Assembly: GCA_963792855.1 (NCBI GenBank)
Contig: CAWBXZ010000001.1
Coordinates: 260,472-324,471, forward strand
DNA length: 64,000 nucleotides
Origin: an uncultured beta proteobacterium
GTDB lineage: Bacteria > Pseudomonadota > Gammaproteobacteria > Burkholderiales > Eutrophovitaceae
Direction of reading: 5' to 3'
The notes below the pieces were generated by a model that saw only the letters and a program-made list of their open reading frames with translations, was not told the origin of the DNA and ran no database searches. The translations under genes were made by a program, and so were the position numbers. Positions 40,639-55,785 of the stretch are shown here, one piece after another (the first letter of the stretch is position 1; every line of letters begins with the position of its first letter).

Positions 40639-40723
40639 TGCGCCGCGCACACACGTAACAACGTTCTGGACACGCTGATCGATACAACGCGAGTTTCATT
40701 ATTCCCGATTGCAGGAGGTACCC

Positions 40724-41968
40724 ATGCTTGCCGAAAGCCACGTCTATTTTCACAAAGCTGCCGATGTCCTCGGCTTGTCAGACAAGATTCGAACCATCCT
40801 GTTGACGCCGCGACGCACCGTCAAGGTGGGAATCACCATCGAAGGCGAAGATGGCACGCTGCAGTCTTATGAGGGTTACCGCGTTCAGCACAACGCGGCC
40901 CGCGGCCCGATGAAGGGCGGCTTGCGCTATCACCCGGCGATGGATGAGGACCATGCGGGCGCGTTGGCCAACCTCATGACCTGGAAGACTGCGGTGGTCG
41001 ATGTTCCTTACGGCGGCGCCAAGGGCGGCATCAACTGCGACCCGCGTTCCATGTCGGAGAAGGATCTGTTCGCGGTCACCGTGCGCTTTGTCGAGCAAAT
41101 GAAGGAGGTCATCGGGCCGACCACTGACATTCCCGCACCGGACGTCAACACCAATGCCAAGGTCATGGGCTGGATCATGCACGAATATTCGAAGTACGCG
41201 GGTTTCTCGCCCGGTGTCGTTACCGGCAAACCTCTGGACCTGTTCGGCTCTGAAGGAAGAGAGGCGGCAACGGGCCGTGGCGTCATGGACGTTCTGGCCG
41301 AAGCGTTGAGCGAGCAGGGCAAGAGTTTTGGTGACATCACGGTAGCAGTGCAGGGATTTGGCAATGTTGGTAGCAACGCCGCCCGGCTGATCGCAGAACG
41401 CGGGGCCCGGGTCGTCGCGGTCGCCGATCACACGGGTGGGGTTTCCAAAGAAGAAGGGCTAGACATTCCGGCGCTGGTGGCGTGGGCGGCTGAGCGTGGC
41501 GGCGTCAAGGGTTTCCCGGGAGCAGAGGCTTTTGCCAGTTCGGAGATCATCACCTGGAAAGCCGATGTGCTGGTGCCGGCTGCTCTGGAAGACGCAATCA
41601 ACAAGGACAATGCGGCGGACGTCAAAGCCGGCATCATTGTCGAAGGCGCCAACGGCCCGACGACACCGGAGGCCGATCAGATACTCAACGAGCGCGGCAT
41701 CCTGATTATTCCGGACATTCTCGCCAACGCCGGTGGTGTGACCGTGAGCTACTTCGAATGGGCTCAGAACATCCAGCAGTTCAGATGGGATGAAGAGAAG
41801 GTCAATCTCGAACTGGACAAGAAAATGAGTAAGGCCTACCGTGCAGTGCATGAGGAGGCGACTGCGCGCAACATTGACATGCGAACGGCGGCCTTTGTAT
41901 TGGCCATCCGCAGAGTCGGAAAGGCGGCGCTCGCACGACAGCACATCAAGGCCGAGCTTCCGTTCTAA
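40724..41968 (+). CDS. Glu/Leu/Phe/Val dehydrogenase family (glutamate dehydrogenase-like)
   Basis: AGGAGG RBS before ATG 40724. GPMKGGLRYHP, MTWKTAVVDVPYGGAKGG, VQGFGNVG and GANGPTT are present. Confidence 0.9.
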   Translation: MLAESHVYFHKAADVLGLSDKIRTILLTPRRTVKVGITIEGEDGTLQSYEGYRVQHNAARGPMKGGLRYHPAMDEDHAGALANLMTWKTAVVDVPYGGAKGGINCDPRSMSEKDLFAVTVRFVEQMKEVIGPTTDIPAPDVNTNAKVMGWIMHEYSKYAGFSPGVVTGKPLDLFGSEGREAATGRGVMDVLAEALSEQGKSFGDITVAVQGFGNVGSNAARLIAERGARVVAVADHTGGVSKEEGLDIPALVAWAAERGGVKGFPGAEAFASSEIITWKADVLVPAALEDAINKDNAADVKAGIIVEGANGPTTPEADQILNERGILIIPDILANAGGVTVSYFEWAQNIQQFRWDEEKVNLELDKKMSKAYRAVHEEATARNIDMRTAAFVLAIRRVGKAALARQHIKAELPF

Positions 41969-42113: not shown

Positions 42114-42135
42114 CACCTTGATCGCGATCAAGGTG
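42114..42135. promoter_or_regulatory. perfect FNR/CRP-family box inside a 22-bp perfect palindrome
   Basis: CACCTTGATCGCGATCAAGGTG. The core TTGAT-CGCG-ATCAA (42118-42131) equals the FNR consensus TTGAT-N4-ATCAA. It lies about 220 bp upstream of the GRE start codon. Confidence 0.7.
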
Positions 42136-42350: not shown

Positions 42351-44823
42351 ATGAAGACCGCAACGAAATCTGCAACAAGAAAAACTGCAACAAAAAAAAC
42401 CGCAAGTGATCTTAGGGGTAGTTCTACAGCACGGGTTACGGCGGATGACGAGCGCATTGATACGCTGAAGGAACTGCTCAGGAGCACTCCGCAGGATCTC
42501 GACTTCGAGCGAGTCAAGATCATGCGCGAGATTTACGAAGAATCCGCAGGCGATAATTCGCTCCTCCAACGAGCCAAGTTCCTGGCCGCCGTCCTGGAGC
42601 GCAAGAAACTGTATATCGACGACAACCTCTTCGTCGGTGCCATGGCAGGCAAACAAAACGCGCTCTACACCTATCCCGAATGGCAGGTGGACTGGATGAT
42701 CGAGGAAAAGACGGTCGAAAACTCGCCGACGCCGGAAGACAAGGCGGCGAACCAGTGGGCGATCGACTACTGGGGCCCGCGTGGGATGAAACTCCGCACC
42801 GAAGCCATCTTTGAGAAGCGCTTTGGATACGACCCCAAAATCAGTTACGACGCCGGACTCATTGCCGCGTTCCATGACTGGCCGGCCGGTGGTGGCAACC
42901 TGAACTACCCGCGGGTGTACCGCGAGGGCCTCGCCAGCATGATCAAGGAGGTGGAGGAGCGACAGATGGCCCTCGAGATGCGGATGCCGAACATGACCAA
43001 GTTCTACTTCTATGAGTCATCCCTCATCGTGATGCGGGCGGCGATTCGCTATGCCCATCGCTATGCCGAGTTGGCTCGGGAGATGGCCGCCAAGGAAAAG
43101 GACAAGACCCGCAAGGCGGAGCTGATCTCCCTCGCGGAAACCTGCGAGTGGGTTCCCGAGAATCCTGCCCGTAACCTGCGGGAAGCCATCCAGAGTCACT
43201 TCTTCTGTCACATCATTGCAGAACTTGAGCAGATCGGCTGCGGGTACTCCGAGGCCTACCTGGGTCAGAACCTCGAGCCTTTTTACCAGGCCGACAAGGC
43301 GGCCGGACTCATTACCTACGAAGACGCAGTCTTCATGTTCAAGAACCTCACCATCAAGTTGAACGAGATCAACTACTACTACGGTGAGAAGATCGCTCTG
43401 CAGAACTCCGCCGACCTGGGACAGAGTATTACCCTTGCGGGATTTTCCGAGGACGGTGGGGATGCCACGGCGGAAATGGACTACGTGATTCTTGATTCCT
43501 CGCTTTATCTCTCACTGCCCCAGCCGCCGCTCTCGGTTGCGCTTACTCCGCAAACTCCGGGCAAGTTCATCGAGAAAGTGCTCGATGTGATTGGGACCGG
43601 CATCGGTCTCCCGCAATTCCTCAACGCGGACGTTATGATGAAGCGGGCTCTGCACCTCTGGGGCCACAACGACCGGGTCGGCGATCTCCCATTGGAGAAA
43701 GCGCGACGCACCTGTGTCGGGGCCTGCGTGGGAAGCTATATCCCGTATGAGACCGGTCACCCGGTGGAGGGGCAGCCCAACCTCGGCAAGATCATCGAGT
43801 TGACCATGAACGATGGCTTCGATCCGCGAACCCAAAAGCAGGTCGGTCCCAAGACCGGCGATCCCGTTAATTTCAAGGACTTCGAGGAACTGTACGCGGC
43901 GTTCGAGAAGCAGCTTCAATTCTGCGAAGACACACTGCGTCACGCGGCCTGGATTTCGAACATCCTGCAGGCGGATTTCCTCCCCTGTAGCTTGGCGCTC
44001 GATCCTGACCGGAGGATGCATCGAGACCGGCACCGAGACCTGGGCCGGCGGAGCCAACTACTACACGGTCGCCCAGATCTCCGTCGGCCAGGTGGATGCC
44101 GCCAACTGCCTAATGGCGGTGAAGGACTTGGTGTTCGACAAGAAGAAGCTGACCATGGCCGAACTGAAGGCGGCTCTGGCGGCCAACTTCGAAGGCAAAT
44201 ACGAGAAGGTCAGGAAGATGTGTTACGAGGACGCGCCGAAGCACGGAAACGACATCCCGGAGGTGAACCAAATACTCCTCAGGGTGAACAACAGTATCCT
44301 GACGGCCTTCAACAACGTCGATGGCGGCGGCAACTACATCACCAAAGACACCAAGACCTCGCTCGACCAATACACCAAGAGTGTTCACAACCTGATGGGC
44401 CTGGTGACCGGCGCGTTACCCAACGGCAAGAAGGCCGGCGTGGCCCTCACCGATGGCAGCCTGTCGGCGATGCCGGGCACGGATGTCAACGGACCGACCG
44501 CGCTGGTGATGTCTGCGGCCAAAGGCCAGGATGCCGTGAAGTGGTGTGCCACGCACATGAACATGAAACTCCCGCCGGACCAACTCAAGTCGCGCAAGGG
44601 TCGGGAAAACGTGATGAACCTGGTCAGGACCTTGTTCACCAACGGGGGCTATCACATCCAGTTCAATGTGCTGGATACCGAGAAGCTGAGAGACGCGCAG
44701 AAGCACCCTGAGAACTACCGTGACCTCGTGGTCCGAGTCGCCGGTTTCAGCGCGTTCTTCACCAAGCTGCATGTGGGTGTTCAGAACGAGATCATCGAGC
44801 GGACCTTGCAGAAATTCGGGTGA
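42351..44823 (+). pseudogene. glycyl-radical enzyme (PFL2/PflD-like family), reading frame broken by one extra base in a C4 run (true pseudogene or assembly error)
   Basis: Frame 0 (42351...) is GRE-like up to ..AAWISNILQADFLP. Frame +1 continues VAWRSILTGGCIETGTETWAGGANYY... and ends with the glycyl-radical motif DLVVRVAGFSAFFTKL. The junction is at CCCC 43982-43985. The 786-aa track ORF ends in out-of-frame Arg/Gly-rich sequence. Confidence 0.9.
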
Positions 44824-44920
44824 CGAACAACGGAGCTGGTACGGCGTGGCGTTTCGTCACGCCGTACCGGAAATTCCTCGAAGAACAGCAAACAACCCCA
44901 GTACAACGGGATATCAGATC

Positions 44921-46078
44921 ATGAGTAAGCACACGAAACGCATCGCAATCAATGTGGGTGCCGGCTACGTCCCGGGCATGAATGCCGTGGTAACGGGAGC
45001 CGCGCTCGCAGCGGTTAAACTGGGGTGGGAAATCGTCGGCATACGCGACGGTTTCGACGGGCTCCTCCATGGAGACCGTTACCCGAACGGCGGCGTGGTA
45101 ACGCTCTCGCCGCAATTCATCGCGGATATGGACCCGGCGGCGAGTGGCGCGCTCGGACAGTCGCCGTGGGTAGATCCTTTTCATGTCCGGCGAGTCGACG
45201 ATGACGAGTATGTCCAGGAAGTCGATGTCTCGGACGAGATCCTGGACAAGCTGAAATCCGAGGGAGTCGATGCACTGATCTCGGTCGTTGGCGGGCGCGG
45301 ACTCAGCATTCTTTACAAACTCCATCGAAAAGGCCTGAATGCCGTGTGCATCCCGCGCTCGCTCGAGAATGACATTGCCAGCACGACGGTGTCATTCGGC
45401 TTCAACAGCGCGTTGACCTTCACGATCGACATGCTGGACCGGAGCCGGCAGGCGGCGCGGGCTTCCCGCCAGATCGCTGTCGTTGAGGTGCTGGGAGCAC
45501 AGTCCGGCTGGCTGGCATTGCAAGCCGGGATCGCGGCCGGCGCCGATGCGATCCTGATTCCTGAAATTCCCAGTGACCTTGATGTGATCGCCGCGCAACT
45601 GAAGGAGAAGATGGACCCCGATCGACCTGCGGCGCTCGTCGTCGTGGCGGAGGGTGTGCGGCTCGTGGGAGGATCGAACAAGGAAGAGAGATCGTCGTCA
45701 TTCAGGGCGTCCTTGTCGCCGCTGGCAACGGGGGGTTCCGGTGAGCACGTCATCGCACGCTCGGGCCGGGCAGCGAATGACGTTGCCAATGGACTGCAGC
45801 GACGGCTTGCCGAGGACACCTATGCGCTCGCGCTGGGGCCATGGGTTCGAGGCGGTACGCCGAGTGCCGTTGACCGGCAGCTCGGCATCGGCTACGGGGC
45901 CGGTGCCGTACAGGCACTCAGTGCCGGCAAAAGCGGTGTGATGGTTGCTTTCCAACCGCCGGACATCGAATCGGTACCGCTTGCGCAGGCGATCAACAAG
46001 GTGCGTACGGTGCCTGCTGATAGCGAGATGATGCAAATCGCCCGATCCATCGGCATCTGCCTGGGAGAAGCGTCATGA
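44921..46078 (+). CDS. phosphofructokinase-fold protein with degenerate catalytic motifs
   Basis: ATG 44921 (MSKHTKRIAINVGAGYVPGMNA). PFK scaffold, but GGDGS reads GGRGL, TIDND reads SLEND and MGR reads LGA. Confidence 0.7.
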   Translation: MSKHTKRIAINVGAGYVPGMNAVVTGAALAAVKLGWEIVGIRDGFDGLLHGDRYPNGGVVTLSPQFIADMDPAASGALGQSPWVDPFHVRRVDDDEYVQEVDVSDEILDKLKSEGVDALISVVGGRGLSILYKLHRKGLNAVCIPRSLENDIASTTVSFGFNSALTFTIDMLDRSRQAARASRQIAVVEVLGAQSGWLALQAGIAAGADAILIPEIPSDLDVIAAQLKEKMDPDRPAALVVVAEGVRLVGGSNKEERSSSFRASLSPLATGGSGEHVIARSGRAANDVANGLQRRLAEDTYALALGPWVRGGTPSAVDRQLGIGYGAGAVQALSAGKSGVMVAFQPPDIESVPLAQAINKVRTVPADSEMMQIARSIGICLGEAS

Positions 46079-47031
46079 GCAGCAATTCAAAAGATGCGAT
46101 CACGGGCACGGTACTGAACATCCAGCGCTACTGCAGCCATGATGGGCCTGGCATTCGCACGACCGTTTTCCTGAAGGGCTGCTCACTGCGTTGCAAGTGG
46201 TGCAGCAATCCGGAAAGCATCTACCCGAAACCTGAGCTTGCCTACGATCGCTCGAAGTGCAGCGGTGCGAAGAAGTGTGGCCTTTGCCTGAAGCCGCCAT
46301 TTCCGGAAGGGGCGTTCTACATCGCCGATGGGGCCGACGACACGATCAACGTCAATTGGGACCTGGCTTCGGAATGCGATAAGGCGCTCACATCCCAATG
46401 CCCGACCGACGCGCTGTACATGTTCGGTGACAGCATGACGGTGGACGAGGTTCTGGAGGAGGTGGAAAAGGACGCCTCTTTCTACAGGAACACCGGAGGC
46501 GGGATGACGCTAAGTGGCGGCGAGTGCCTGTTGCAACCTGATTTCGCCGAGGCACTGCTGAAGGGCGCGCACGAGCGTGGCATCAACACGGCGATCGAAA
46601 CTGCGGGCAACTATCCCTGGCGCTTCATGGAGCAGGTGTTACCCCATGTTGATACCGTGCTTCACGATCTCAAGGTGACTGACCCGGAGCGGCACAAGAA
46701 ATGGACCGCCGTCAAGAACGAAAGGATCATGGCGAACTTCAAGAAAGCCTACGAAACTTTTCCCGATGCGGACTTTATCGCGCGCACGCCGGTGATTCCT
46801 GGCGTTAATGACGACGAGGAACATATCCGGGCGGTGCTTGAGTTCATTCGTCCCCACAAGAATGTGATCGACTATGAGCTGCTGCCGTACATGCGTTTCG
46901 GCATGGGCAAGTACGACCTCTTGGGCGAGCTGTACGAGTTGAAGGACTTTAAACCCCCGACTGAAGAGTCGATGGAGCGGCTGCAGGCGATTATCGATGA
47001 GGCTTTCGGCCGCAATAAGCAAGATAGATGA
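46075..47031 (+). CDS. glycyl-radical enzyme activating protein (radical SAM)
   Basis: ATGA overlap with the upstream gene. GPGIRTTVFLKGCSLRCKWCSNPES is the CxxxCxxC motif. Additional Cys-rich ferredoxin-like insert (CSGAKKCGLC...QCP). Confidence 0.9.
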   Translation: MSSNSKDAITGTVLNIQRYCSHDGPGIRTTVFLKGCSLRCKWCSNPESIYPKPELAYDRSKCSGAKKCGLCLKPPFPEGAFYIADGADDTINVNWDLASECDKALTSQCPTDALYMFGDSMTVDEVLEEVEKDASFYRNTGGGMTLSGGECLLQPDFAEALLKGAHERGINTAIETAGNYPWRFMEQVLPHVDTVLHDLKVTDPERHKKWTAVKNERIMANFKKAYETFPDADFIARTPVIPGVNDDEEHIRAVLEFIRPHKNVIDYELLPYMRFGMGKYDLLGELYELKDFKPPTEESMERLQAIIDEAFGRNKQDR

Positions 47032-47931
47032 CAGAGACCAGCGAACAAGAATCACGCCTCATCGAAACGGGCTGGTTGGCGGAGCATCTGGATAGTCCCA
47101 GTCTCAGGATTCTGGATTGCTCTGTTGTGGTTCGTGATGCGGATGACGGTAGCCGCACCTACCCAGTGGAAGATCTGAATGGGACAGGGCCACATCCCCG
47201 GTAGCGTGTTTGTTGACTTCCTGGCAGATCTTAATGCCAGGCAGCCGATACCGTATAACATGCCACCACTGGATGAATTTGCAGCAACGATGGAATCTAT
47301 CGGAGTCGCTGATGACAACCGGGTTGTGCTCTACGACAATTCGAACCATGCATGGGCGGCCCGTGTCTGGTGGATGTTACGGGTTATCGGTTTCGACAGC
47401 GCGGCCGTGCTAAACGGCGGCTGGCAGAAGTGGAAGGCGGAAGGGCGGCCGGTTTCCGCCGGGGAAACATGTTATCCAGCTGGCAAGCTTACGATCAGGC
47501 ATCGCCCGGGGCTGATGGTAGACAAGCAGTACGTATTGTCATCGCTATCGGACGACAGGATCACGATCATCAATGCTTTGACGGCAGACGAACACAGCGG
47601 CAAGGTGAGCCGGTTTCCGAGAGCCGGCCACATTTCGGGAAGTGTAAACGTTGACTGTGAGACGCTGGTCGACCCGAATCAGCACGTCTTTCTGCCGAAG
47701 GAAGAACTGCGCGCGATTTTCGACTCTGCCAGTGCGCTGAACGGAGACAGTGTCATCACTTATTGCGGCGGAGGCGTTGCTGCGAGCAGCGATGCTTTAG
47801 CGTTAACGTTGCTCGGTATGGATGATGTCGCCGTTTACGATGGCGGATTGATTGAATGGACCGCCGATTCAAGTTTGCCGATGGAAGAGGATCGTCATGG
47901 TCAGAAAACAAGGTCGACCCAGCCTGGTTGA
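47028..47931 (+). pseudogene. tandem-rhodanese sulfurtransferase (SseA/MST-like), frame broken by one extra G (true pseudogene or assembly error)
   Basis: ATG 47028 (ATGA overlap with the activase) gives MTETSEQESRLIETGWLAEHLDSPSLRILDCS...YPVEDLN, then a stop. Frame +1 continues GQGHIPGSVFVDF... to 47931 with the active loop YCGGGVAAS. The junction is at GGG 47181-47183. Confidence 0.8.
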
Positions 47932-48194
47932 GCAAGACCAAGGGACTCAAGTGCCATGTCAATGTGTCCAAAGAGTGTGTTCTTTACATCGGAATCAGTG
48001 ATCGCAAGTCGTCGGGACAAGTTCTGCGATCAGATATCGGACGTAGTGCCCGACGAATGCCTGAGGCAGGATTCGATCGCGCATATCGCCTGATCGCCAA
48101 CTGCCACAGGTTCAGGATTTGCGACGACGTTGGAGAAATTGTGATCGAAGCGCGAGCATGAACGCCATCTGAAACCGGCGGAATCCAGTCCCGC

Positions 48195-49748
48195 TCAATC
48201 CATTACGAGCGATGCGAGATGCTCGATCAGGTCACGTGAGTCAATGATGCCGACGGGCCTTTGCCGATCGTCGACCAGCGGAAGATAGCGCAGATCACTA
48301 ACCACCATCAGGTGGACCGCATGAGCCAGCGGATGGTCCGGGTGAACCGTGTGCGGGTCGGGCGTCATCACCTCGCGCACAATAGTCGCGGCGGGATCGA
48401 GTTGTGCCGCGGCGACGCGCACGAGCGCGTCCGTCTCGGTGAAGATGCCGGTGAGTCTCCCGTCTTCTCCGGTGACGAGCACACTACCGATGCGTCGCTC
48501 ACGCAGAATTCCGAGCGCGACTTCCACGGTAGACGTCTCGGCGAGCGAAATGGGCACAGCCGGATTCAACTTCTCCACAGTGTCGTCACGCAGACTGCGC
48601 TCGATCATACTCTGGGCTTCGCCGGGCGCGACTTCCTCGTGCGTAAGACTGGCGAGGCACAGTTCGCACTCGTCGGCACCGGGCAGATTCGGATGGTCGC
48701 AAACAGGGCAGGGCGTGCCTTCCAGGGCGGCAGCGGGAATCGCCCACGTGTCGCCCTGGCGATAGAGCGCGTTCAGGTCCGGCGCATGCGCTTCCCGGGC
48801 GCTTTGCACCTGCGCCATTAACTGCTGGTCGTAGACAGGCTTCCGGATTGCACGGAATACCCCTACGGGAGTCGGAAAGTCCGGCGGCCCCATGCGGCTC
48901 AAAAAGTAGGCCAAAGTCGGTTGCGTTGCGCATTCGTCGTGTACCAGAAGCTCTTGTTCGTCAACATCGGCGACGTTGACCACTTCGGGCGTGAGTCCGT
49001 TAAGGCGAATGCCTTTTTCCATCGCCTTGCCGAAGCGCATTGGTTGCCCGTGCTCGAGGAAGAGCACATTGTCGGGCTTGGTGTCGGGATCAGTCAGATG
49101 GGCCCAGGCCCCATTGTTGAAGATCATGCAATTCTGCGCGACCTCAATCAACGTGGCGCCCGAATGCTGCGCTGCCCGCCTCAACACACCCGCCATATGC
49201 TCCTGGAAGGTATCTACCGTGCGCGCGATGAAGCTGGCCTCGGCCCCGATGGCCACGCCAATGGGATTGACGGGGTTCTCGATCGAGCCGTCGGGACTTG
49301 ATTTGGTACGCTTGCCGATCTCGGACGTCGGCGAGTACTGTCCTTTGGTAAGGCCGTAGATCCGATTATTGAACAACACAATATTGATGTCGATATTGCG
49401 TCGAAGAGCGTGCAGGAAATGATTGCCGCCAATCGCCAGGGCGTCACCGTCACCGGTCGTGACCCAAATCTGTAACTCGGGACGTGCACACTTGAGACCG
49501 GTCGCCAAGGTCGGCGCCCGACCGTGAATCGAGTGAATCCCGTAAGTGTTCATGTAATACGGGAAGCGGCTTGAGCAGCCGATGCCCGCAATCACCACAA
49601 TGTTCTCGCGCGGAATTCCCAGTTCGGGGAGTGTCTTCTGGACTTGTGCGAGGATCGCATAGTCGCCGCATCCGGGGCACCAGCGGACGGTCTGGTCCGA
49701 AACAAAATCCCGGCGGGTGAGTTTGATCGACTGGATATTCGCGTTCAT
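48195..49748 (-). CDS. korB: 2-oxoacid:ferredoxin oxidoreductase beta subunit fused to a C-terminal Cys4 ribbon + CBS pair
   Basis: VRWCPGCGDY and GIGCSSRFPYY...TTGDGD are the TPP/FeS motifs (aa 1 to ~335). They are followed by CPVCDHPNLPGADECELC and two CBS motifs (aa ~345-517; nt 48195-48731). Confidence 0.85.
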   Translation of the reverse strand: MNANIQSIKLTRRDFVSDQTVRWCPGCGDYAILAQVQKTLPELGIPRENIVVIAGIGCSSRFPYYMNTYGIHSIHGRAPTLATGLKCARPELQIWVTTGDGDALAIGGNHFLHALRRNIDINIVLFNNRIYGLTKGQYSPTSEIGKRTKSSPDGSIENPVNPIGVAIGAEASFIARTVDTFQEHMAGVLRRAAQHSGATLIEVAQNCMIFNNGAWAHLTDPDTKPDNVLFLEHGQPMRFGKAMEKGIRLNGLTPEVVNVADVDEQELLVHDECATQPTLAYFLSRMGPPDFPTPVGVFRAIRKPVYDQQLMAQVQSAREAHAPDLNALYRQGDTWAIPAAALEGTPCPVCDHPNLPGADECELCLASLTHEEVAPGEAQSMIERSLRDDTVEKLNPAVPISLAETSTVEVALGILRERRIGSVLVTGEDGRLTGIFTETDALVRVAAAQLDPAATIVREVMTPDPHTVHPDHPLAHAVHLMVVSDLRYLPLVDDRQRPVGIIDSRDLIEHLASLVMD

Positions 49749-51586
49749 GACAACATCTCCTCGATCTTTCTCTCGATTTCGGCAATGGTGAAAGGCCGAC
49801 CCTGTATCTTTGACAGGGAGACCACGTCGATCATGAAACGCGCGCGCAGTAGCAGCGCCAGTTGACCGGCATTCAACTCGGGGACGAGGACACTGGAGTA
49901 ACGGGCCAGCAGGGAACCGAGGTTGCGTGGAAAAGGGTTCAGGTAACGAAGGTGCGCACAGGCCACCGAGTAACCCCGTTCACGGCAATTGCTGACAGCG
50001 GCCGATGCGACGCCGCGAGTACTGCCCCAACTGAGCACCAGCAGGTCGGCGTCGTCGTCGCCTTCGACCGACTGTTCGGGTACGAACTCCGCGACACGCT
50101 CGACCTTTTGGGCTCGCAATCGAGACATGCGCTCGTGATTGTCGGGGTCATAACTGACATTGCCCGTCTCATGCTCCTTCTCGAGTCCGCCGAGGCGATG
50201 CTCGAGACCCGGAGTGCCGGGCACGGCCCATGGACGTGCCAGCGTCGAGTCGTCGCGGCCGTATGGTCGAAAGCCCTCCGCCTCGCAGGGGTGCGTCACG
50301 CGAATTGGATCCAGCGCCTCGACGACGGGAATGCGCCAGCGCTCCGCGCTGTTGGCCACCTGTGAGTCCGAGAGCACGATGACCGGTGTGGTATGCCGCA
50401 CCGCGATGCGGAACGCATCGATGGCGACGTCATAGCAATCCGCTGGGCCCGAGGCCGCCAGCACCGGTATCGGGCTCTCACCATTGCGGCCGAAAGCGGC
50501 CTGGAGCAGATCCGATTGTTCCGTTTTGGTTGGCAGACCGGTGGAGGGGCCGCCGCGTTGAACGTTGAGAATGACCAGCGGCAACTCAAGCATGATTGCA
50601 AGGCCGATGGCTTCGCTTTTCAGGCAAATTCCGGGACCACTCGTCCCGGTTAGCGAAAATGCACCTCCAAAAGCCGCCCCGATGGCAGACCCCATTGCCG
50701 CGATCTCGTCCTCGGCCTGGAATGTACGCACATCGAGATATTTGAGCCGCGCCAGATGATGCAATACGTCGGAGGCCGGCGTAATTGGATAGCTGCTGTA
50801 GACCAACGGCTTGCCAGCCAGGTGCGCAGCCGTGACGCTTCCCAGGGCGAACGCTTCGTTGCCGTTGATGATCCGATAATCGCCCGGTTCTGCCGGTGCC
50901 GGGGGTACCCGGTATTGCACCAGAAAGTTGTCGCTGTCCTCAGGGTAACGGTATCCCGCCTCGAGCGCATGGCGGTTTCCTTCAGCGATCTGCGGCGCAC
51001 GCGCGAATTTTCTGTCGATCCACGCGCGACTGTGTTCCATAGGCCGATCGTAAAGCCAGTAGAGAAGCCCGAGTGCGAAGAAGTTCTTGCAGCGCCGCTT
51101 CTGGCGAGTCTCGAGACCGGTGCCGTCCAAAGCTGCATCGGTTAGTGAAGTGATCGATACGCGGTGCAGCCGATACCGGGTCGCCAGATCCGGATCCTCC
51201 AGCGGGTTCTCTGCGTAGCCGGCCTTGCGCAGGTTGCCCTTGCTGAAAGCGTCGCTGTCAACCAGCAGCACACCGCCAGGATCCAGTCGCGGCAGGTAGA
51301 CTTTGAGCGCGGCCGGGTTCATCGCAACCAATGCTCCCAGGCGGTCGCCGGGGGCCCGGATCTTGTGGCTGGCGACGCTCAGCTGAAAGGCAGAGACGCC
51401 GGCGACGGAGCCCGCCGGGGCGCGAATTTCAGATGGATAATCGGGCAGTGTACTGATGTCGTTGCCGAACATCGCCGAGGCGGAGGTGAACTGCGTTCCG
51501 ATCAATTGCATGCCGTCCCCGGAATCACCGGAGAATAGAATCGTCACGTTATCGAGTTCACGTTGCTCCCGATTGTTGAGACGCAT
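49745..51586 (-). CDS. korA: 2-oxoacid:ferredoxin oxidoreductase alpha (gamma-alpha fused) subunit
   Basis: Start moved to ATG 51586 (MRLNNREQRELDNVTILFSGDSGDGMQLIG). ATGA overlap with the beta subunit. Confidence 0.85.
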   Translation of the reverse strand: MRLNNREQRELDNVTILFSGDSGDGMQLIGTQFTSASAMFGNDISTLPDYPSEIRAPAGSVAGVSAFQLSVASHKIRAPGDRLGALVAMNPAALKVYLPRLDPGGVLLVDSDAFSKGNLRKAGYAENPLEDPDLATRYRLHRVSITSLTDAALDGTGLETRQKRRCKNFFALGLLYWLYDRPMEHSRAWIDRKFARAPQIAEGNRHALEAGYRYPEDSDNFLVQYRVPPAPAEPGDYRIINGNEAFALGSVTAAHLAGKPLVYSSYPITPASDVLHHLARLKYLDVRTFQAEDEIAAMGSAIGAAFGGAFSLTGTSGPGICLKSEAIGLAIMLELPLVILNVQRGGPSTGLPTKTEQSDLLQAAFGRNGESPIPVLAASGPADCYDVAIDAFRIAVRHTTPVIVLSDSQVANSAERWRIPVVEALDPIRVTHPCEAEGFRPYGRDDSTLARPWAVPGTPGLEHRLGGLEKEHETGNVSYDPDNHERMSRLRAQKVERVAEFVPEQSVEGDDDADLLVLSWGSTRGVASAAVSNCRERGYSVACAHLRYLNPFPRNLGSLLARYSSVLVPELNAGQLALLLRARFMIDVVSLSKIQGRPFTIAEIERKIEEMLS

Positions 51587-51590
51587 CGGT

Positions 51591-52058
51591 TCAGCCTCCT
51601 TCCCGCTCAAGCGCTGTCTGATCAGGATCGGGCGGCAGGTTGAGCACCTGCGCGGAGTGATGCTCGGCGAGGTAGTTGAGAATGTCCTTATGTCTGACAC
51701 AGCCGATCACGCGGTCAACGTTGTCCACGATCGGGACGTTCCGGAATCCGCCGCGCCGCATTAGCCGAACTGCCTTGCGTATAGAGTCAGTTTGAGTGAC
51801 TTTGGCGGGATTGGGTGTCATCCAGTCGGTGGCGGGCTGGTCGAAGGCCTCGGCGTTTCCCAGGACACGCGCAACAAGGTCGCGCTCCGTGAAAATTCCG
51901 GCGAGCCGATCGTCGCACGTCAGCAACGCATAGCCGGAGTTTCTGTCGACCATCTGACGGATCACCTCACGTAGTGGCCTTGCCGCGTCGAGCACCACCG
52001 GCCGCGTTGTCGCCACCGTCATGACCTCGATCATCTTGATGCTTTGTTCAAACCGCAT
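51591..52058 (-). CDS. stand-alone CBS-pair protein
   Basis: 155 aa with two CBS motifs (..ALLTCDDRLAGIFTERDL.. and ..NVPIVDNVDRVIGCVRHKDIL..). Its stop codon ends 5 nt before the korA start. Confidence 0.8.
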   Translation of the reverse strand: MRFEQSIKMIEVMTVATTRPVVLDAARPLREVIRQMVDRNSGYALLTCDDRLAGIFTERDLVARVLGNAEAFDQPATDWMTPNPAKVTQTDSIRKAVRLMRRGGFRNVPIVDNVDRVIGCVRHKDILNYLAEHHSAQVLNLPPDPDQTALEREGG

Positions 52059-52715
52059 GGCGGTTGACCTCCGTGGAATCCGGCAACGAACAACTGCATT
52101 CTGCCGGCTTTGCGTGTCGGTGCGGCATGGGTATTCAAACCGTTAGAGATTGTTACGGGATTCGACCGGCACCCGTTTTCGTCGAGGCGACGTTTCAGAC
52201 AATGAGTTCCTGGTCGAACCGAATCCAGGCAGCGCTCGCGAGTGTACCGGTTCTGCAATGGGTCCGCTTGAAAACGAGGCTGCAATCGCGCCGGGCAGGT
52301 TAACCCCGGTCATGCGGAATTCGTAAGGTGCCCGATCCGTATTGGGAGCGTGGCTCTGCCTGCAATGGGGCTGCGTACCACTTTATGTGGTGACACTTCC
52401 TTCGGTGGCACCGTCTGCTAGAATCAATCGGAAAAGACAAGCGCTGCTCCATTTAACTCGTCATGCTGTCGCGGTGTCCCGTCATAAAGACGGACCGGCG
52501 TTGTCCAAGACCGACGCAAAGAAGGAAGGCACTCGAGATGCGTGACGTGAGTGTCCTGCTGGAGGTGTACAGCCCGTGACGATGCTGGATGTCTATGACG
52601 TGGTTGTGGAGATTATGGCCGTGACTGAACTGGTGCCGTTGGTGACATTGCCGGCGCCTGGAGCGGCAAGCGTTTTTCCCGAGCTTTCCCCCAACATGGC
52701 TGAGACAGGTCCGAC

Positions 52716-54368
52716 ATGAAAGCATCCGATCTACTCGTACGCTGCCTGGAAGAAGAGGGCATTGAATACATCTTCGGCGTGCCCGGTGAGGAAAACGCCG
52801 ACTTCATGATGTCGTTGCAGAAGAGTGAAACAATCCGTTTCATTCTGACTCGCCACGAACAGGGTGCCGCCTTCATGGCGGAGATCTATGGCCGACTTAC
52901 GGGCACGCCGGCGGGTGCGCTCGGTACGCTGGGCCCCGGCGCGACGAACCTGATTACCGGCGTCGCGGACTCGAACATGGATCGTGCGCCGATGCTGGTG
53001 CTGACCGGCCAGGGATCGACCAACCGTTTACACAAGGAATCTCACCAGATCATGGATGTTGTCGCCATGTTCAAGCCGGTGACCAAGTGGGCGACAACGA
53101 TTCACAATCCAGACACGATACCGGAGATCGTCAGAAAGGCGGTTCGACTCGCGCGAACGGAAAAACCGGGGGCAGTTCACATCGAACTTCCGGTCGATGT
53201 GGCCAAAATGGAAGCCGGCACCACGCCGATGACGCCGCATCGATTCCGTCGTCCTGTTCCTGATGACAAGATCATCGATCAGGCATTCGCGATGCTTCGC
53301 GAAGCGAAACGACCGGTGATTCTCGCCGGCAACGGGTGTATTCGACGAAGGGCGAGCAAGCAGTTACGGCTGCTTTGCGAAAAAACGGGCATCGGTGTCA
53401 TCAGCACTTTCATGGCGAAAGGCTGTGTTGATATGGATGCGGACTATTGTCTTTTCACCGTGGGCCTGGGAAGCAAGGATCGCGTCTCGGCGGCTATCGA
53501 TGACGCCGATCTCGTCATTACGCTCGGCTTCGACATGGTCGAGTACCATCCGCATTTGTGGAATCCGCAGATGAACAAGCGCATTTTGCACATGGACTTT
53601 CTGCCGGCGGAAATCGATGCACATTATCATCCTGAAACCGAGGTCGTCGGTGATCTCGCACACGCCTTGTGGATGCTCAATGCGCGCATCGATACGCATG
53701 GCGTGCATGCGTTCGACTTGTCGCTACAGCGTAAATGCCGGACCGAAATGACTGGTGATTTCTCCGAACACCAGGATGACCGGACCGAGGGCTCGATTCG
53801 TCCACAGAAGGCCGTGTGGGATGCTCGGCAGGTGATGGGGCCAGAGGATATTCTGTTATCCGACGTCGGTGCGCACAAGATGTGGGTTGCACGCTATTAC
53901 CAATGCCATGAACCAAATACCTGTCTGATTCCGAACGGGTTCTGTTCGATGGGATTCGCGCTGCCGGGCGCGATCGCGGCAAGCATCGTGTATCCGGATC
54001 GGCGTATTCTGGCGATTGCCGGGGACGCGAGCTTTCTGATGAATGTGCAGGAAATGGAGACCGCGAAGCGCATCGGCAGCAACATCGTGGTCATGGTGTG
54101 GGAAGACAACGCCTATGGCCTCATTGCGTGGAAACAGCAAAAGGAATTTGGTGCTCATACCGATCTCTCGTTTGGCAATCCCAACTGGACCACCTTGGCG
54201 GACGCATTCGGCTGGCATGGCCATTACGTTGAAAAGTCGGTCGATCTCAAGGGCACTTTGGAGGCAGCCTTCGCGGAGAATGGGCCAAGTCTGGTAGTCA
54301 TCCCGATCGATTATCGTGAAAATGCCTTGCTCGCCAGGAAGATGGGCGAGATTACGATGACGATCTGA
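52716..54368 (+). CDS. acetolactate-synthase (AlsS)-like TPP enzyme
   Basis: ASDLLVRCLEEEGIEYIFGVPGEEN, RHEQGAAFMAE.YGR.TG, LGPGATNL..G.A....DR.P and GDASFLMN.QE..TA.R are present. 550 aa. Confidence 0.8.
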   Translation: MKASDLLVRCLEEEGIEYIFGVPGEENADFMMSLQKSETIRFILTRHEQGAAFMAEIYGRLTGTPAGALGTLGPGATNLITGVADSNMDRAPMLVLTGQGSTNRLHKESHQIMDVVAMFKPVTKWATTIHNPDTIPEIVRKAVRLARTEKPGAVHIELPVDVAKMEAGTTPMTPHRFRRPVPDDKIIDQAFAMLREAKRPVILAGNGCIRRRASKQLRLLCEKTGIGVISTFMAKGCVDMDADYCLFTVGLGSKDRVSAAIDDADLVITLGFDMVEYHPHLWNPQMNKRILHMDFLPAEIDAHYHPETEVVGDLAHALWMLNARIDTHGVHAFDLSLQRKCRTEMTGDFSEHQDDRTEGSIRPQKAVWDARQVMGPEDILLSDVGAHKMWVARYYQCHEPNTCLIPNGFCSMGFALPGAIAASIVYPDRRILAIAGDASFLMNVQEMETAKRIGSNIVVMVWEDNAYGLIAWKQQKEFGAHTDLSFGNPNWTTLADAFGWHGHYVEKSVDLKGTLEAAFAENGPSLVVIPIDYRENALLARKMGEITMTI

Positions 54369-54890: not shown

Positions 54891-55785
54891 TCAGAACGAC
54901 ACTGTCATCACTGCGGTCGGACCCGTGAACACTGTCCGTGCTGCGCCTCGCCAATCCGGATCGTCGACTTGGAGGTCTACCACGAGGTTGCGCATGCCCA
55001 ATGCGAACCCGACATGGCGAAAAGGCTGATAAAGAACGTCGATAGCCATGCTGCGCACGTCACCAGAGTATTCACCATAGGTGAGCGACAGCCAATCCGC
55101 TCGCAGCCGAAGTGCCCACTCGTCTGTAAGCCCAAACGACCCGTAGAAATTCAGCACTGGCAAGGGGGCCAGCACGTCCCCCGCTTCAGCAACGCCACCT
55201 CCCGCCGACTGGATCGACGCTTCGATGCCTGCAACGTGCAGGCCGATGCCGATGCCAAGTTCCTTGTCCGACCGTTTGTAGAACGAATAACCGGCGCTTA
55301 CGCGAGTGTCGTAAAAATTGTATGTCGCATCGATCGAAGTGCCGATATTGAAAGTCTCATCGCCCCAATCGATAGTCGCTGTCAGCGTCTTGGTCGCGCT
55401 GCGGTTCACCCGGAAGTACTCGACATCAAGTCGCCAACGGTTGGTAATACGCCAGACAAAACCCCCGATTCCGGTCGTGTTCTGGTCATCGAGCCCAAGC
55501 ACGTTCTCGAAATCGATGACCACGCCGGTCCCGCCACCGGACCCGGACAGTCCGGCCTGGGTGCTGGTCCTGGCATGGAATCCACCGATTTCAATCAGGA
55601 ATCGATCGGAACGATCGGTGGCGCCGGAGGTCGTATCCGTTGACGCGGTCTCGGCGCGCGCTGCTGCTGCCGTCAATGCGCTAAATCAGGCTGAGCACGA
55701 GTGTCACTGCCGTGAGTGCACATCCTGTCGTGCCCTTCGATCGCCTGGTCGTTGTGGTCACGCTTGGCTTCCTGTCAGTTGTCAT
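54891..55785 (-). pseudogene. outer-membrane beta-barrel protein, signal peptide separated from the barrel by a 1-nt frameshift (true pseudogene or assembly error)
   Basis: ATG 55785 gives MTTDRKPSVTTTTRRSKGTTGCALTAVTLVLSLI, then TAG. The barrel ORF (54891-55676, ending ..TAVMTVSF) starts in the next frame as (S)ALTAAAARAETAS. Removing one T of the TTT run (plus-strand AAA 55683-55685) restores a normal signal peptide. Confidence 0.75.

What the first reader, a model, noticed from the sequence alone, without database searches (positions are those of the whole stretch)
48195..52058. 2-oxoacid:ferredoxin oxidoreductase decorated with CBS domains: fused to the beta subunit and as a separate first gene
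The beta subunit carries a ~175-aa C-terminal extension (nt 48195-48731). It consists of a Cys4 ribbon (CPVCDHPNLPGADECELC) and a CBS pair. The operon opens with a stand-alone CBS-pair protein whose stop codon ends 5 nt before the korA start. CBS pairs normally sense adenosyl ligands (AMP/ATP/SAM) or ionic strength. I am not aware of a described OFOR with a CBS fusion. It suggests direct allosteric, energy-charge control of a ferredoxin-reducing enzyme, next to a SAM-consuming radical-enzyme operon.
Basis: partly seen in the sequence, partly recalled or inferred. Interest (0 to 1): 0.6.

Follow-up and report, generated by a model that had tools for sequence, protein, structure and literature searches.

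The report
KorAB oxidoreductase with two CBS sensors
This three-gene operon encodes a 2-oxoacid:ferredoxin oxidoreductase with two CBS small-molecule-sensing modules, one free and one fused to the beta subunit after loss of a stop codon; the combination recurs in several phyla and I found no study of it, so it is a lead on how a central low-potential redox enzyme may be switched by a metabolite.

Summary
On the minus strand lie cbsN (155 aa, CBS pair), korA (613 aa) and a 517-aa KorB. KorB carries a short linker, a Cys4 zinc ribbon and a CBS pair. Pfam supports all domains, and the genes are translationally coupled.

The fusion is not an artefact. About 50 metagenomic protein clusters share the same 517-aa architecture at 65-82% identity.

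The main new point is that the fusion derives from a more widespread four-gene operon: cbsN-korA-korB-(zinc-ribbon-CBS, about 175 aa). In unfused relatives korB ends in a stop codon. In many of them about 7 in-frame codons and "MKCPxCG" follow. Fused KorBs form essentially one clade, so one stop-codon loss explains them. Both CBS partners were present in every locus that could be judged. They also occur as an adjacent pair without korAB.

In the fused clade alone, the operon sits next to an orphan glycyl-radical-enzyme/activase cluster, in at least four gene arrangements.

Most likely the two CBS proteins form a heteromeric sensor for an adenosine-containing ligand. The sensor would be docked on KorAB and gate its activity. 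Neither the ligand nor the effect was tested. I found no paper describing this. I rate it a new variant of a known kind, of moderate to high interest.

The parts
51591..52058 (-). cbsN: stand-alone CBS-pair protein, 155 aa, with the conserved C-terminal tail VLNLPPDPDQ...EREGG. First gene of the operon.
   Evidence: Pfam CBS x2, E 8e-22. Homologues in every korAB-linked locus are exactly 155 aa and carry the same tail. The gene is present upstream of korA in 23 of 23 assessable loci.
49745..51586 (-). korA: alpha subunit (fused gamma-alpha type), 613 aa, with the YPITP motif at residue 266. Its start lies 4 nt after the cbsN stop.
   Evidence: POR, POR_N and PFOR_II. TIGR03710 634 bits, above the cut-off. 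Start codon and motif. Homologues are 606-618 aa.
48735..49748 (-). korB core, residues 1-338: TPP-binding beta subunit with four Cys ligands for one [4Fe-4S] cluster (C24, C27, C58, C207) and the GDGD...NN motif. ATGA overlap with korA.
   Evidence: TPP_enzyme_C E 1.6e-30. The alignment to the Sulfolobus tokodaii OFOR beta subunit 5B46_B (E 4.5e-55) places C24/C27/C58/C207 opposite chain positions 12/15/46/197, Cys in the chain. These positions are invariant or nearly so in 65 homologues.
48711..48734 (-). Tether, residues 339-346: a poorly conserved linker that corresponds to the former korB stop codon plus the intergenic spacer.
   Evidence: Linker is variable among fused proteins. Many unfused relatives show a stop, then about 7 in-frame codons, then MKCPxCG.
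48657..48710 (-). Cys4 zinc ribbon, residues 347-364, with spacing C-x2-C-x3-N-x6-C-x2-C.
   Evidence: C, P, C, N, G, C and C are invariant in 24 fused and free family members. Pfam DZR, Zn_Ribbon_1 and RanBP hits are below threshold only. AF2 pLDDT is about 87.
48198..48575 (-). CBS pair (Bateman module), about residues 392-517, with the motifs GIFTETD (CBS1), LRYLP and GIIDSRD (CBS2). The stop codon is at 48195-48197.
   Evidence: Pfam CBS x2. AF2 pLDDT 95-99. Foldseek TM up to 0.9 to CBS pairs solved with AMP, ADP, ATP or SAM.
42351..47931 (+). Associated context: orphan glycyl radical enzyme (frameshifted in this assembly), PFK-fold protein, GRE activase and rhodanese. The cluster is convergent with the kor operon.
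   Evidence: NCBIfam hits. The same cluster lies next to the fused kor operon in L007, L029, L034, L035, L039, L049 and L056, and near it in L027. It is absent from all unfused loci.
40709..41968 (+). Associated context: glutamate dehydrogenase, the enzyme that makes 2-oxoglutarate.
   Evidence: NF040817 474 bits, below its cut-off of 750. GDH also lies next to or near the fused operon in L027 and L028, and near an unfused one in L044.

Best explanation
The operon encodes a two-subunit, single-cluster 2-oxoacid:ferredoxin oxidoreductase (KorAB). The substrate is most likely 2-oxoglutarate.

The enzyme comes with a dedicated two-part CBS module:
- CbsN, a free 155-aa CBS pair with a conserved LNLPPDP...EGG tail.
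- A Cys4 zinc-ribbon plus CBS-pair protein.

In the ancestral and more common form, the second protein is a separate, translationally coupled gene after korB. In this lineage the korB stop codon was lost, the spacer became a 9-residue tether, and the protein is now covalently attached to KorB.

Inferred mechanism:
1. The zinc ribbon docks the second CBS pair near the KorB C-terminus.
2. The two CBS pairs associate into a four-CBS sensor, like the gamma subunit of AMPK or the four-CBS proteins MJ1225 and SSO3205.
3. Binding of an adenosine-containing ligand changes the sensor's conformation. Candidates are AMP/ADP/ATP first, then SAM, CoA thioesters or dinucleotides.
4. That change gates OFOR activity, through access of ferredoxin, CoA or substrate.

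In the fused clade the enzyme is additionally tied to an orphan glycyl-radical-enzyme system. For that system it probably supplies reduced ferredoxin to the radical-SAM activase, oxidises the pathway's 2-oxoacid, or both.

Shown: gene anatomy, domain identity, conservation, co-occurrence, the origin of the fusion and the gene neighbourhoods.
Inferred: physical complex, heteromer, ligand, direction of regulation and substrate.
For: - **Catalytically competent OFOR.** All domains, the four cluster cysteines, GDGD..NN and YPITP are present.
- **Both CBS partners are obligate companions.** The zinc-ribbon-CBS is downstream of or fused to korB in 41 of 41 loci. CbsN is upstream of korA in 23 of 23 assessable loci. 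This includes four loci picked through KorB alone.
- **Genomes from the Acidobacteriota-phylum sample.** In 5 of the 7 checked, korB lies next to the zinc-ribbon-CBS gene even at 57-64% KorB identity.
- **Translational coupling.** The spacer between cbsN and korA is 4 nt with GGAGG inside cbsN. ATGA/GTGA overlaps or gaps of 6-11 nt are common between the genes.
- **The fusion argues for direct contact with KorB (Rosetta-stone logic).** It arose essentially once: 51 of 52 fused proteins fall in one clade with support 96. It has been kept intact in about 50 clusters.
- **The two CBS genes act as a pair.** They also occur as a directly adjacent or overlapping pair without korAB (L060-L065, L067, L069).
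- **The CBS pair is well folded and canonical.** pLDDT is 92.7. The nearest structures are AMP-, ADP-, ATP-, Ap4A- or SAM-bound CBS pairs. The ribose-binding motif G-h-h-[TS]-x-x-D and conserved Arg residues are retained in both families.
- **Substrate hint.** Glutamate dehydrogenase is adjacent or near in the window, L027, L028 and L044.
- **GRE link.** The GRE cluster is adjacent or near in 9 of about 14 fused loci, in at least four arrangements, and in none of about 12 unfused loci.
Against: - No binding, kinetic, structural or expression data exist.
- No complex prediction was possible. The full-length AF2 model is poor in the KorB part (pLDDT 64.8), so the position of the ribbon and CBS pair relative to the cluster or active site is unknown.
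- CBS pairs bind many ligands, and some bind none.
- The CBS pair occurs without korAB in soil loci, so it may serve more than one target.
- The substrate is inferred from neighbourhood and source annotation only.
- The KorB score for TIGR02177 is just below its cut-off (250.1 against 261.9).
- The KorB C-terminal third (residues 213-338) does not align to solved beta subunits.
- Fused loci may be phylogenetically close, which inflates the GRE association.
Confidence: 0.6

Rival explanations
1. The fusion is an assembly or frameshift artefact: korB and a downstream CBS gene were wrongly joined in this genome.
For: This assembly has a frameshift nearby: the GRE is split at about nt 43984. Unfused relatives differ from the fused form by only one stop codon in the same frame.
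Against: About 50 independent clusters from JGI, ENA, NCBI and Logan have the same 517-aa protein at 65-82% identity. 19 fetched loci read through without a stop. Fused KorBs form a supported clade.
Confidence: 0.02
2. The Cys4 ribbon is a redox-active Fe(Cys)4 centre, rubredoxin-like as in Thermoplasma TA0289. It would extend the electron path from the single KorB cluster to an acceptor, and the CBS pair would be only a scaffold.
For: Two-subunit OFORs lack the ferredoxin domain, and no Fer4 domain is found here. The four Cys are invariant. TA0289, a CBS-rubredoxin-like protein solved with Fe2+, appears among the fold matches (ranks 41 and 50).
Against: The ribbon has only 10 residues between its two Cys pairs. 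Its spacing, C-x2-C-x3-N-x6-C-x2-C, fits the structural RanBP2-type zinc finger pattern as I recall it from PROSITE. The Pfam hits are to zinc-ribbon families, all below threshold. The domain order is the reverse of TA0289. The same ribbon-CBS protein occurs without any OFOR nearby. This reading does not explain the obligate second CBS protein.
Confidence: 0.1
3. The CBS proteins are not ligand-gated allosteric regulators. They would be structural, protective or dormancy factors, for example stabilising or shielding the oxygen-labile enzyme or fixing its oligomeric state, as is suspected for the CBS-only hypoxic response protein Hrp1.
For: Hrp1 (Rv2626c; 1Y5H, 1XKF) is among the closest sequence and fold matches. 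The host genome also has the aerobic 2-oxoglutarate dehydrogenase, so it probably meets oxygen. A desulfoferrodoxin gene lies near one unfused operon.
Against: The ribose-binding motifs and conserved Arg residues of ligand-binding CBS pairs are retained across both families at 35-70% identity. Most close structural neighbours are nucleotide- or SAM-bound.
Confidence: 0.18
4. The CBS pair is a general two-protein regulator that acts on another target or on several. Its position around korAB would then reflect co-regulation, not a physical complex.
For: cbsN and ZnR-CBS occur as an adjacent pair with no korAB within 4.5 kb in soil loci. In three of those loci they lie about 0.9 kb upstream of a homoaconitase. 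In G577 and G601 korB and ZnR-CBS are not adjacent.
Against: The covalent fusion to KorB has been kept in about 50 clusters. The overlapping stop and start codons bracketing korAB point to stoichiometric co-production.
Confidence: 0.08

Closest known systems
Two-subunit (alpha-beta) 2-oxoacid:ferredoxin oxidoreductases: Sulfolobus tokodaii OFOR (PDB 5B46/5B48), Magnetococcus marinus OGOR (6N2N) and the 2-oxoglutarate enzyme 8YS5
   Same: Fused gamma-alpha subunit plus a TPP-binding beta subunit with a single [4Fe-4S] cluster and no ferredoxin domain. E-values to the beta chains are 4.5e-55 to 1.7e-47. Cluster cysteines, GDG..NN and YPITP are conserved.
   Different: Going by their chain lengths of 273-305 aa, none of the solved beta chains carries a CBS domain, and I know of no reported CBS partner subunit. 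The KorB core here is longer (338 aa), and residues 213-338 do not align to them.
The unfused four-gene operon cbsN-korA-korB-(ZnR-CBS) seen in metagenomes and MAGs (Nitrospirae, Acidobacteriota and others). I found no description of it in the literature.
   Same: Same CbsN (155 aa with the LNLPPDP tail), same KorA and KorB (75-80% identity) and a homologous zinc-ribbon-CBS (44-49%).
   Different: In those operons the zinc-ribbon-CBS is a separate 171-181-aa protein. Here it is fused through a 9-residue tether. Only the fused clade is linked to the GRE cluster.
CBS-regulated enzymes and four-CBS sensors: CBS-pyrophosphatase, IMP dehydrogenase, the AMPK gamma subunit, MJ1225 and SSO3205 (3DDJ)
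   Same: Bateman modules that bind adenosine ligands and regulate an attached or partner enzyme. These are top sequence and fold matches. Two CBS pairs per catalytic unit matches the four-CBS layout.
   Different: Here the four CBS motifs would come from two different polypeptides, the regulated enzyme is a TPP/Fe-S oxidoreductase, and ligand binding is unproven.
TA0289 of Thermoplasma acidophilum (PDB 1PVM, 2QH1): a CBS pair fused to a Zn-ribbon or rubredoxin-like domain
   Same: A CBS pair combined with a Cys4 ribbon in one protein. It appears among the fold matches.
   Different: The domain order is reversed: the ribbon is C-terminal in TA0289 and N-terminal here. The match runs through the CBS pair only. 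TA0289 is not known to be attached to an OFOR.
Plant CBSX1/CBSX2: stand-alone CBS-pair proteins that modulate thioredoxins
   Same: Small CBS-only proteins that act in trans on a redox enzyme system. They are fold matches (4GQV, 4GQW, 4GQY with AMP).
   Different: Different target and lineage, no zinc ribbon, no second CBS partner and no operon context.

Membership tests
Two-subunit 2-oxoacid:ferredoxin oxidoreductase (KorAB / OAFO superfamily) | Alpha subunit with the POR (gamma), POR_N (domain I) and PFOR_II domains, scoring above the curated cut-off | tested here: met
   Pfam E 4e-24, 4e-52 and 3e-8. TIGR03710 634 bits against a cut-off of 482.75.
Two-subunit 2-oxoacid:ferredoxin oxidoreductase (KorAB / OAFO superfamily) | YPITP substrate/TPP motif in the alpha subunit | tested here: met
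   SSYPITPASD at KorA residue 266.
Two-subunit 2-oxoacid:ferredoxin oxidoreductase (KorAB / OAFO superfamily) | Beta subunit with the TPP-binding GDG...NN motif and four Cys ligands for one [4Fe-4S] cluster | tested here: met
   TPP_enzyme_C E 1.6e-30. C24, C27, C58 and C207 align to chain positions 12, 15, 46 and 197 of 5B46_B, where the chain also has Cys. These are invariant or nearly invariant in 65 sequences.
Two-subunit 2-oxoacid:ferredoxin oxidoreductase (KorAB / OAFO superfamily) | Beta subunit above the curated NCBIfam cut-off (TIGR02177 PorB_KorB) | tested here: inconclusive
   250.1 bits against a cut-off of 261.9. Only profile positions 2-192 of 286 match, because the C-terminal third is divergent.
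Two-subunit 2-oxoacid:ferredoxin oxidoreductase (KorAB / OAFO superfamily) | 2-oxoglutarate as substrate and ferredoxin as acceptor | not testable with these tools
   Only indirect hints: source annotations and glutamate dehydrogenase neighbours.
CBS pair (Bateman module) | Two tandem CBS motifs forming one beta-alpha-beta-beta-alpha pair module | tested here: met
   Pfam CBS x2 in both KorB-C and CbsN, above the cut-off. AF2 pLDDT 95-99. Foldseek E 1e-11 with TM up to 0.9.
CBS pair (Bateman module) | Ribose-binding motif G-h-h-[TS]-x-x-[DN] in the CBS motifs (motif recalled from reviews of CBS domains) | tested here: met
   GIFTETD and GIIDSRD in KorB-C. GIFTERD and GCVRHKD in CbsN. G, E and D are conserved across both families.
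CBS pair (Bateman module) | Actual binding of an adenosine-containing ligand and a regulatory effect | not testable with these tools
   Needs ITC or thermal shift plus enzyme assays.
Zinc ribbon / RanBP2-type Cys4 finger | Spacing C-x2-C-x3-N-x6-C-x2-C (PROSITE-type pattern, recalled from memory; the leading Trp is absent here) | tested here: met
   C347, C350, N354, C361 and C364. C, P, C, N, G, C and C are invariant in 24 family members.
Zinc ribbon / RanBP2-type Cys4 finger | Significant match to a curated zinc-ribbon model | tested here: inconclusive
   DZR E 0.0016-0.053, Zn_Ribbon_1 E 0.013-2.1 and RanBP E 0.1. All are below the gathering scores but recur across members.
TA0289-type CBS + Zn-ribbon (rubredoxin-like) proteins | CBS pair followed by a C-terminal Fe-binding ribbon | tested here: not met
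   The ribbon is N-terminal to the CBS pair here. The fold match covers the CBS pair only. The metal is unknown.
Heteromeric four-CBS sensor (AMPK-gamma-like) | Two Bateman modules associated in one regulatory unit | not testable with these tools
   Indirect support only: strict co-occurrence and adjacent or overlapping cbsN and ZnR-CBS gene pairs without korAB. No multimer prediction was available.

The most novel reading that the evidence does not exclude
CbsN and the zinc-ribbon-CBS module form an obligate heteromeric four-CBS sensor bolted onto KorAB. The conserved CbsN tail (LNLPPDP...EGG) or the ribbon would plug the ferredoxin or CoA site until an adenosine ligand is bound.

In the fused clade this sensor would read the SAM or 5'-deoxyadenosine state, or energy charge. 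It would then meter low-potential electrons from 2-oxoglutarate oxidation to the activase of the neighbouring orphan glycyl radical enzyme. That would be a dedicated, metabolite-gated electron supply for radical-enzyme activation.
Probability: 0.15. Interest if true: 0.8.

Novelty: new variant of a known kind. Interest (0 to 1): 0.6.

Why it matters
OFORs sit at the junction of central carbon metabolism and low-potential ferredoxin pools: the reverse and oxidative TCA cycle, amino-acid fermentation and activation of radical enzymes. As far as I know they are treated as enzymes without direct allosteric regulation.

A conserved, stoichiometrically co-produced pair of CBS sensor proteins, covalently fused to the enzyme in one clade, would be the first sign of direct metabolite gating of an OFOR. 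It also offers a simple testable system of four or three proteins.

The module is patchy but spans phyla. I found it in the window's own class and in phylum-wide samples around a Gemmatimonadota MAG and an Acidobacteriales MAG; source records also name Nitrospirae and Woeseiaceae MAGs. It also gives a functional handle on two large families of otherwise anonymous "CBS domain-containing proteins". The clade-specific link to an orphan GRE system may help to assign that system's electron donor or pathway.

Tried and rejected
- **Full-length AF2 model of KorB-ZnR-CBS** (65-sequence alignment). The CBS pair is confident but the KorB core is poor (mean pLDDT 64.8). No conclusion could be drawn on where the ribbon and CBS pair sit relative to the cluster.
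- **The search for related loci with the 24-sequence ZnR-CBS alignment** failed because there was no conserved 7-10-column stretch. A 6-sequence alignment worked.
- **FNR-box search.** The only perfect TTGAT-N4-ATCAA is upstream of the GRE (42118-42131). None lies upstream of cbsN.
- **Promoter and terminator scan of 47800-52800.** It found no more sites than shuffled sequence gives.
- **Six literature searches** for CBS with OFOR, KorAB, ferredoxin oxidoreductase or Zn ribbon found nothing relevant. Two papers were checked and neither was relevant.
- **G025, same genus.** Its 168-aa match is an ordinary CBS pair without a ribbon and not next to korB, so it is not a family member.
- **Acidobacteriota-sample open frames of 551-582 aa** around ZnR-CBS looked like further fusions. 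Where checked, korB and ZnR-CBS are in different frames or separated by a stop codon.
- **Frameshift-artefact reading** rejected.

Full report
**1. What is in the window**

Three co-directional genes lie on the minus strand.

- cbsN runs 52058..51591 and encodes 155 aa. Pfam finds two CBS motifs (E 8e-22).
- korA is listed mechanically as a 651-aa GTG ORF. Homologues are 606-618 aa. The ATG at 51586 (MRLNN...) gives 613 aa and sits 4 nt after the cbsN stop, with GGAGG inside the last cbsN codons.
- KorA has POR, POR_N and PFOR_II. It passes the TIGR03710 cut-off with 634 bits against 483 and carries YPITP.
- korB runs 49748..48195, overlaps korA by ATGA, and encodes 517 aa.
- Its residues 56-203 are the TPP-binding domain (E 1.6e-30).
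- C24, C27, C58 and C207 align to chain positions 12, 15, 46 and 197 of the Sulfolobus tokodaii OFOR beta subunit, where the chain also has Cys (5B46_B, E 4.5e-55). They are conserved in 65 homologues.
- After residue 338 come an 8-residue variable linker, the Cys4 motif CPVCDHPNLPGADECELC (residues 347-364), a linker of about 27 residues and a CBS pair (Pfam E 6e-24).

The only detail to correct is that the cbsN/korA spacer is 4 nt, not 5.

**2. The fusion is real**

A search of 5.8 billion proteins returned about 50 clusters of 512-525 aa with TPP_enzyme_C plus CBS, at 65-82% identity. They come from JGI, ENA, NCBI and Logan. The Cys4 motif and CBS motifs are conserved in them and the linker is not.

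In species-representative genomes the fused form turned up in three MAGs: a Gemmatimonadota MAG, a Woeseiaceae MAG and an unclassified one. Among the 29 genomes of the window's own family, only this genome has it. This points to patchy and probably horizontal spread.

The nearby frameshift in this assembly, which splits the GRE, does not touch the kor genes. All three have the lengths of their homologues.

**3. The fusion derives from a four-gene operon**

The closest unfused KorBs are 338-342 aa and 75-82% identical over the core. I picked four of them purely by KorB similarity. All four are followed by a gene for a Cys4-ribbon plus CBS-pair protein, and the three whose upstream flank is available are preceded by a 155-163-aa CBS protein. 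These are L025, L026, L076 and L077.

A profile-independent sweep of JGI metagenomes with the ribbon-CBS protein gave 43 loci. I scored these by tblastn together with the loci fetched earlier:

| Arrangement | Loci |
|---|---|
| Ribbon-CBS fused to korB | 19 |
| Ribbon-CBS as a separate gene right after korB | 22 |
| cbsN upstream of korA, where assessable | 23 of 23 |

In many unfused loci korB ends with a stop codon. About 7 codons in the same frame follow, and then comes "MKCPxCG...". Changing that single stop codon reproduces the fused protein with a tether of the observed length.

A maximum-likelihood tree of 113 KorB cores puts 51 of 52 fused proteins in one clade (SH-aLRT 96). The one "unfused" member is a 363-aa protein on a 2-kb contig, which I read as a truncated fragment. 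The divergent fused protein P0055 lies just outside the clade. One fusion event, or at most two, explains the data.

The free ribbon-CBS proteins form a clear family of 171-181 aa. C3, P4, C6, N10, G13, C17 and C20 are invariant in it.

**4. The two CBS proteins behave as one module**

CbsN homologues in korAB-linked loci are all exactly 155 aa. They share GIFTERD, RxxPVVD and a C-terminal tail hLNLPPDP(D/E)...(E/D)GG, down to 41% identity.

In eight soil-metagenome loci a CbsN homologue is followed directly by the ribbon-CBS gene, in one case with an overlap. No korAB lies within about 4.5 kb. In three of these loci a homoaconitase (TIGR00139, above its cut-off) lies about 0.9 kb downstream.

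Among 7 genomes from a phylum-wide sample around an Acidobacteriales MAG (Acidobacteriota by that label), korB at 57-64% identity lies next to the ribbon-CBS gene in 5 and elsewhere in the genome in 2.

Sampled frequencies of the ribbon-CBS protein:

| Sample | Genomes with it |
|---|---|
| Window's own class | 2 of 300 |
| Phylum sample around the Gemmatimonadota MAG | 1-2 of 151 |
| Phylum sample around the Acidobacteriales MAG | 10 of 151 |

**5. Structure and likely ligand class**

The ribbon-CBS part models with mean pLDDT 92.7. By segment this is about 87 for the ribbon, about 70 for the linker and 95-99 for the CBS pair.

Foldseek finds ordinary CBS pairs, with TM up to 0.9. Many of them were solved with AMP, ADP, ATP, Ap4A or SAM/MTA: PAE2072, MJ0100, AcuB, CBSX2, AMPK gamma, MgtE and IMPDH. 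TA0289 appears only at ranks 41 and 50. Sequence search gives the same neighbours, and the four-CBS proteins SSO3205 and MJ1225 rank high.

The ribose-binding motif G-h-h-[TS]-x-x-D (recalled from CBS reviews) is kept in both CBS motifs of both proteins. Conserved Arg residues are kept too.

The ribbon spacing is C-x2-C-x3-N-x6-C-x2-C. This equals the RanBP2-type zinc-finger pattern as I recall it, minus the leading Trp. Pfam gives only sub-threshold DZR, Zn_Ribbon_1 and RanBP hits, though they recur across members. I read the ribbon as a structural zinc knuckle used for docking. An Fe(Cys)4 redox role is not excluded.

**6. Context and physiological role**

The genome also has 2-oxoglutarate dehydrogenase E1. 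It has a second two-subunit OFOR, 35% identical, with no CBS-pair match within about 275 kb on its contig. The CBS-equipped enzyme is therefore an accessory OFOR, probably anaerobic or conditional.

Glutamate dehydrogenase lies in the window (40709-41968). It also lies next to or near the fused operon in L027 and L028, and near an unfused one in L044. Together with the source annotations, this favours 2-oxoglutarate as the substrate.

The orphan GRE / PFK-fold protein / activase cluster lies next to or near the fused operon in these loci:
- the window, L034, L035, L039 and L049, where it is convergent;
- L007 and L056, where it is downstream and co-directional;
- L029, where it is upstream and co-directional;
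- L027, where it is about 8 kb away.

That makes 9 of about 14 fused loci with enough flank, against 0 of about 12 unfused loci. Proximity kept through at least four rearrangements suggests a functional tie.

The simplest ideas are that the OFOR supplies reduced ferredoxin for the radical-SAM activase, or that it oxidises a 2-oxoacid of the same pathway. Both are inference. Rhodanese, a CoA-disulfide-reductase-rhodanese fusion and sulfate- or sulfonate-type transporters recur around these loci. I did not pursue them.

**7. Mechanism proposed**

Shown:
- a competent KorAB;
- two obligate, translationally coupled CBS partners;
- one partner fused to KorB by loss of a stop codon;
- both partners also found as a self-standing pair.

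Inferred:
- The ribbon docks the second CBS pair near the KorB C-terminus. A tether of 8 residues suffices in the fused form.
- The two Bateman modules associate into a four-CBS sensor.
- An adenosine-containing ligand switches the sensor.
- The switch gates access to the cluster, the CoA site or the substrate site.

My confidence by level:

| Claim | Confidence |
|---|---|
| Conserved CBS-equipped OFOR | about 0.95 |
| Physical regulatory complex | about 0.7 |
| Ligand-gated allostery | about 0.55 |
| Adenylates as the ligand | about 0.35 |

**8. Comparison with what is known, and novelty**

The catalytic core is a member of the two-subunit OFOR family. The CBS pairs are ordinary Bateman modules. 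What is not described is their combination.

Six full-text searches found nothing on CBS with OFOR or KorAB. Going by their chain lengths of 273-305 aa, the solved two-subunit OFOR beta chains have no such domain.

Earlier notes of this scan report the same operon in at least 34 other genomes, with the same reading. I consulted them only after I had reached these conclusions. They are not independent evidence.

This window adds four things:
- the stop-loss origin of the fusion;
- its near-single origin;
- the link to the GRE cluster, specific to the fused clade;
- the CBS pairs that occur without korAB.

Noticed in passing
window 42351-44823 (+), shift near 43984: The glycyl radical enzyme is split into two overlapping ORFs. 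ORF 42351..44711 matches the family profile up to about position 546, and ORF 43813..44823 matches from about position 513 to the glycyl-radical end. The orthologue in L007 is an intact 802-aa gene. This is either a homopolymer assembly error or a very recent inactivation.
   Followed up: partly
window 47179-47931 (+): The 3-mercaptopyruvate-sulfurtransferase-like rhodanese ORF matches its profile only from position 44 onward.
   Followed up: no
L060 788-4683, L062 4032-7846, L069 632-4552: In soil metagenome loci a cbsN homologue is followed directly by the zinc-ribbon-CBS gene with no korAB. About 0.9 kb downstream on the same strand lies a fused homoaconitase (TIGR00139, 733-748 bits, above its cut-off). 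The CBS pair may have a second Fe-S enzyme partner.
   Followed up: partly
proteins P0124-P0152: Giant proteins of 900-3200 aa hold 4-10 matched stretches about 30-37% identical to this CBS pair. They top the representative search. Their nature is unknown.
   Followed up: no
window 42118-42131: The only perfect FNR-type palindrome in the 64-kb window (TTGATCGCGATCAA) lies upstream of the GRE operon. None lies upstream of cbsN, so the two convergent operons may be controlled differently.
   Followed up: partly
G000 C5:253643-255506 and C13:195223-197997: The genome also encodes a second two-subunit OFOR (KorB 35% identical, no CBS-pair match within about 275 kb on its contig) and a 2-oxoglutarate dehydrogenase E1. 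That makes three routes for 2-oxoacid oxidation in one organism.
   Followed up: partly
L007 6168-8004; L025 7101-7675: In these relatives korA (L007) and the zinc-ribbon-CBS gene (L025) are split by apparent frameshifts. These are probably assembly errors in the metagenome contigs.
   Followed up: no
window 54891-55676 (-) and L007 4896-5681: A 261-aa gene lies upstream of the kor operon in both the window and L007. Pfam DUF2490 is on record for the L007 gene. Here a 550-aa acetolactate-synthase-like gene (52716-54368, +) sits between this gene and cbsN.
   Followed up: no
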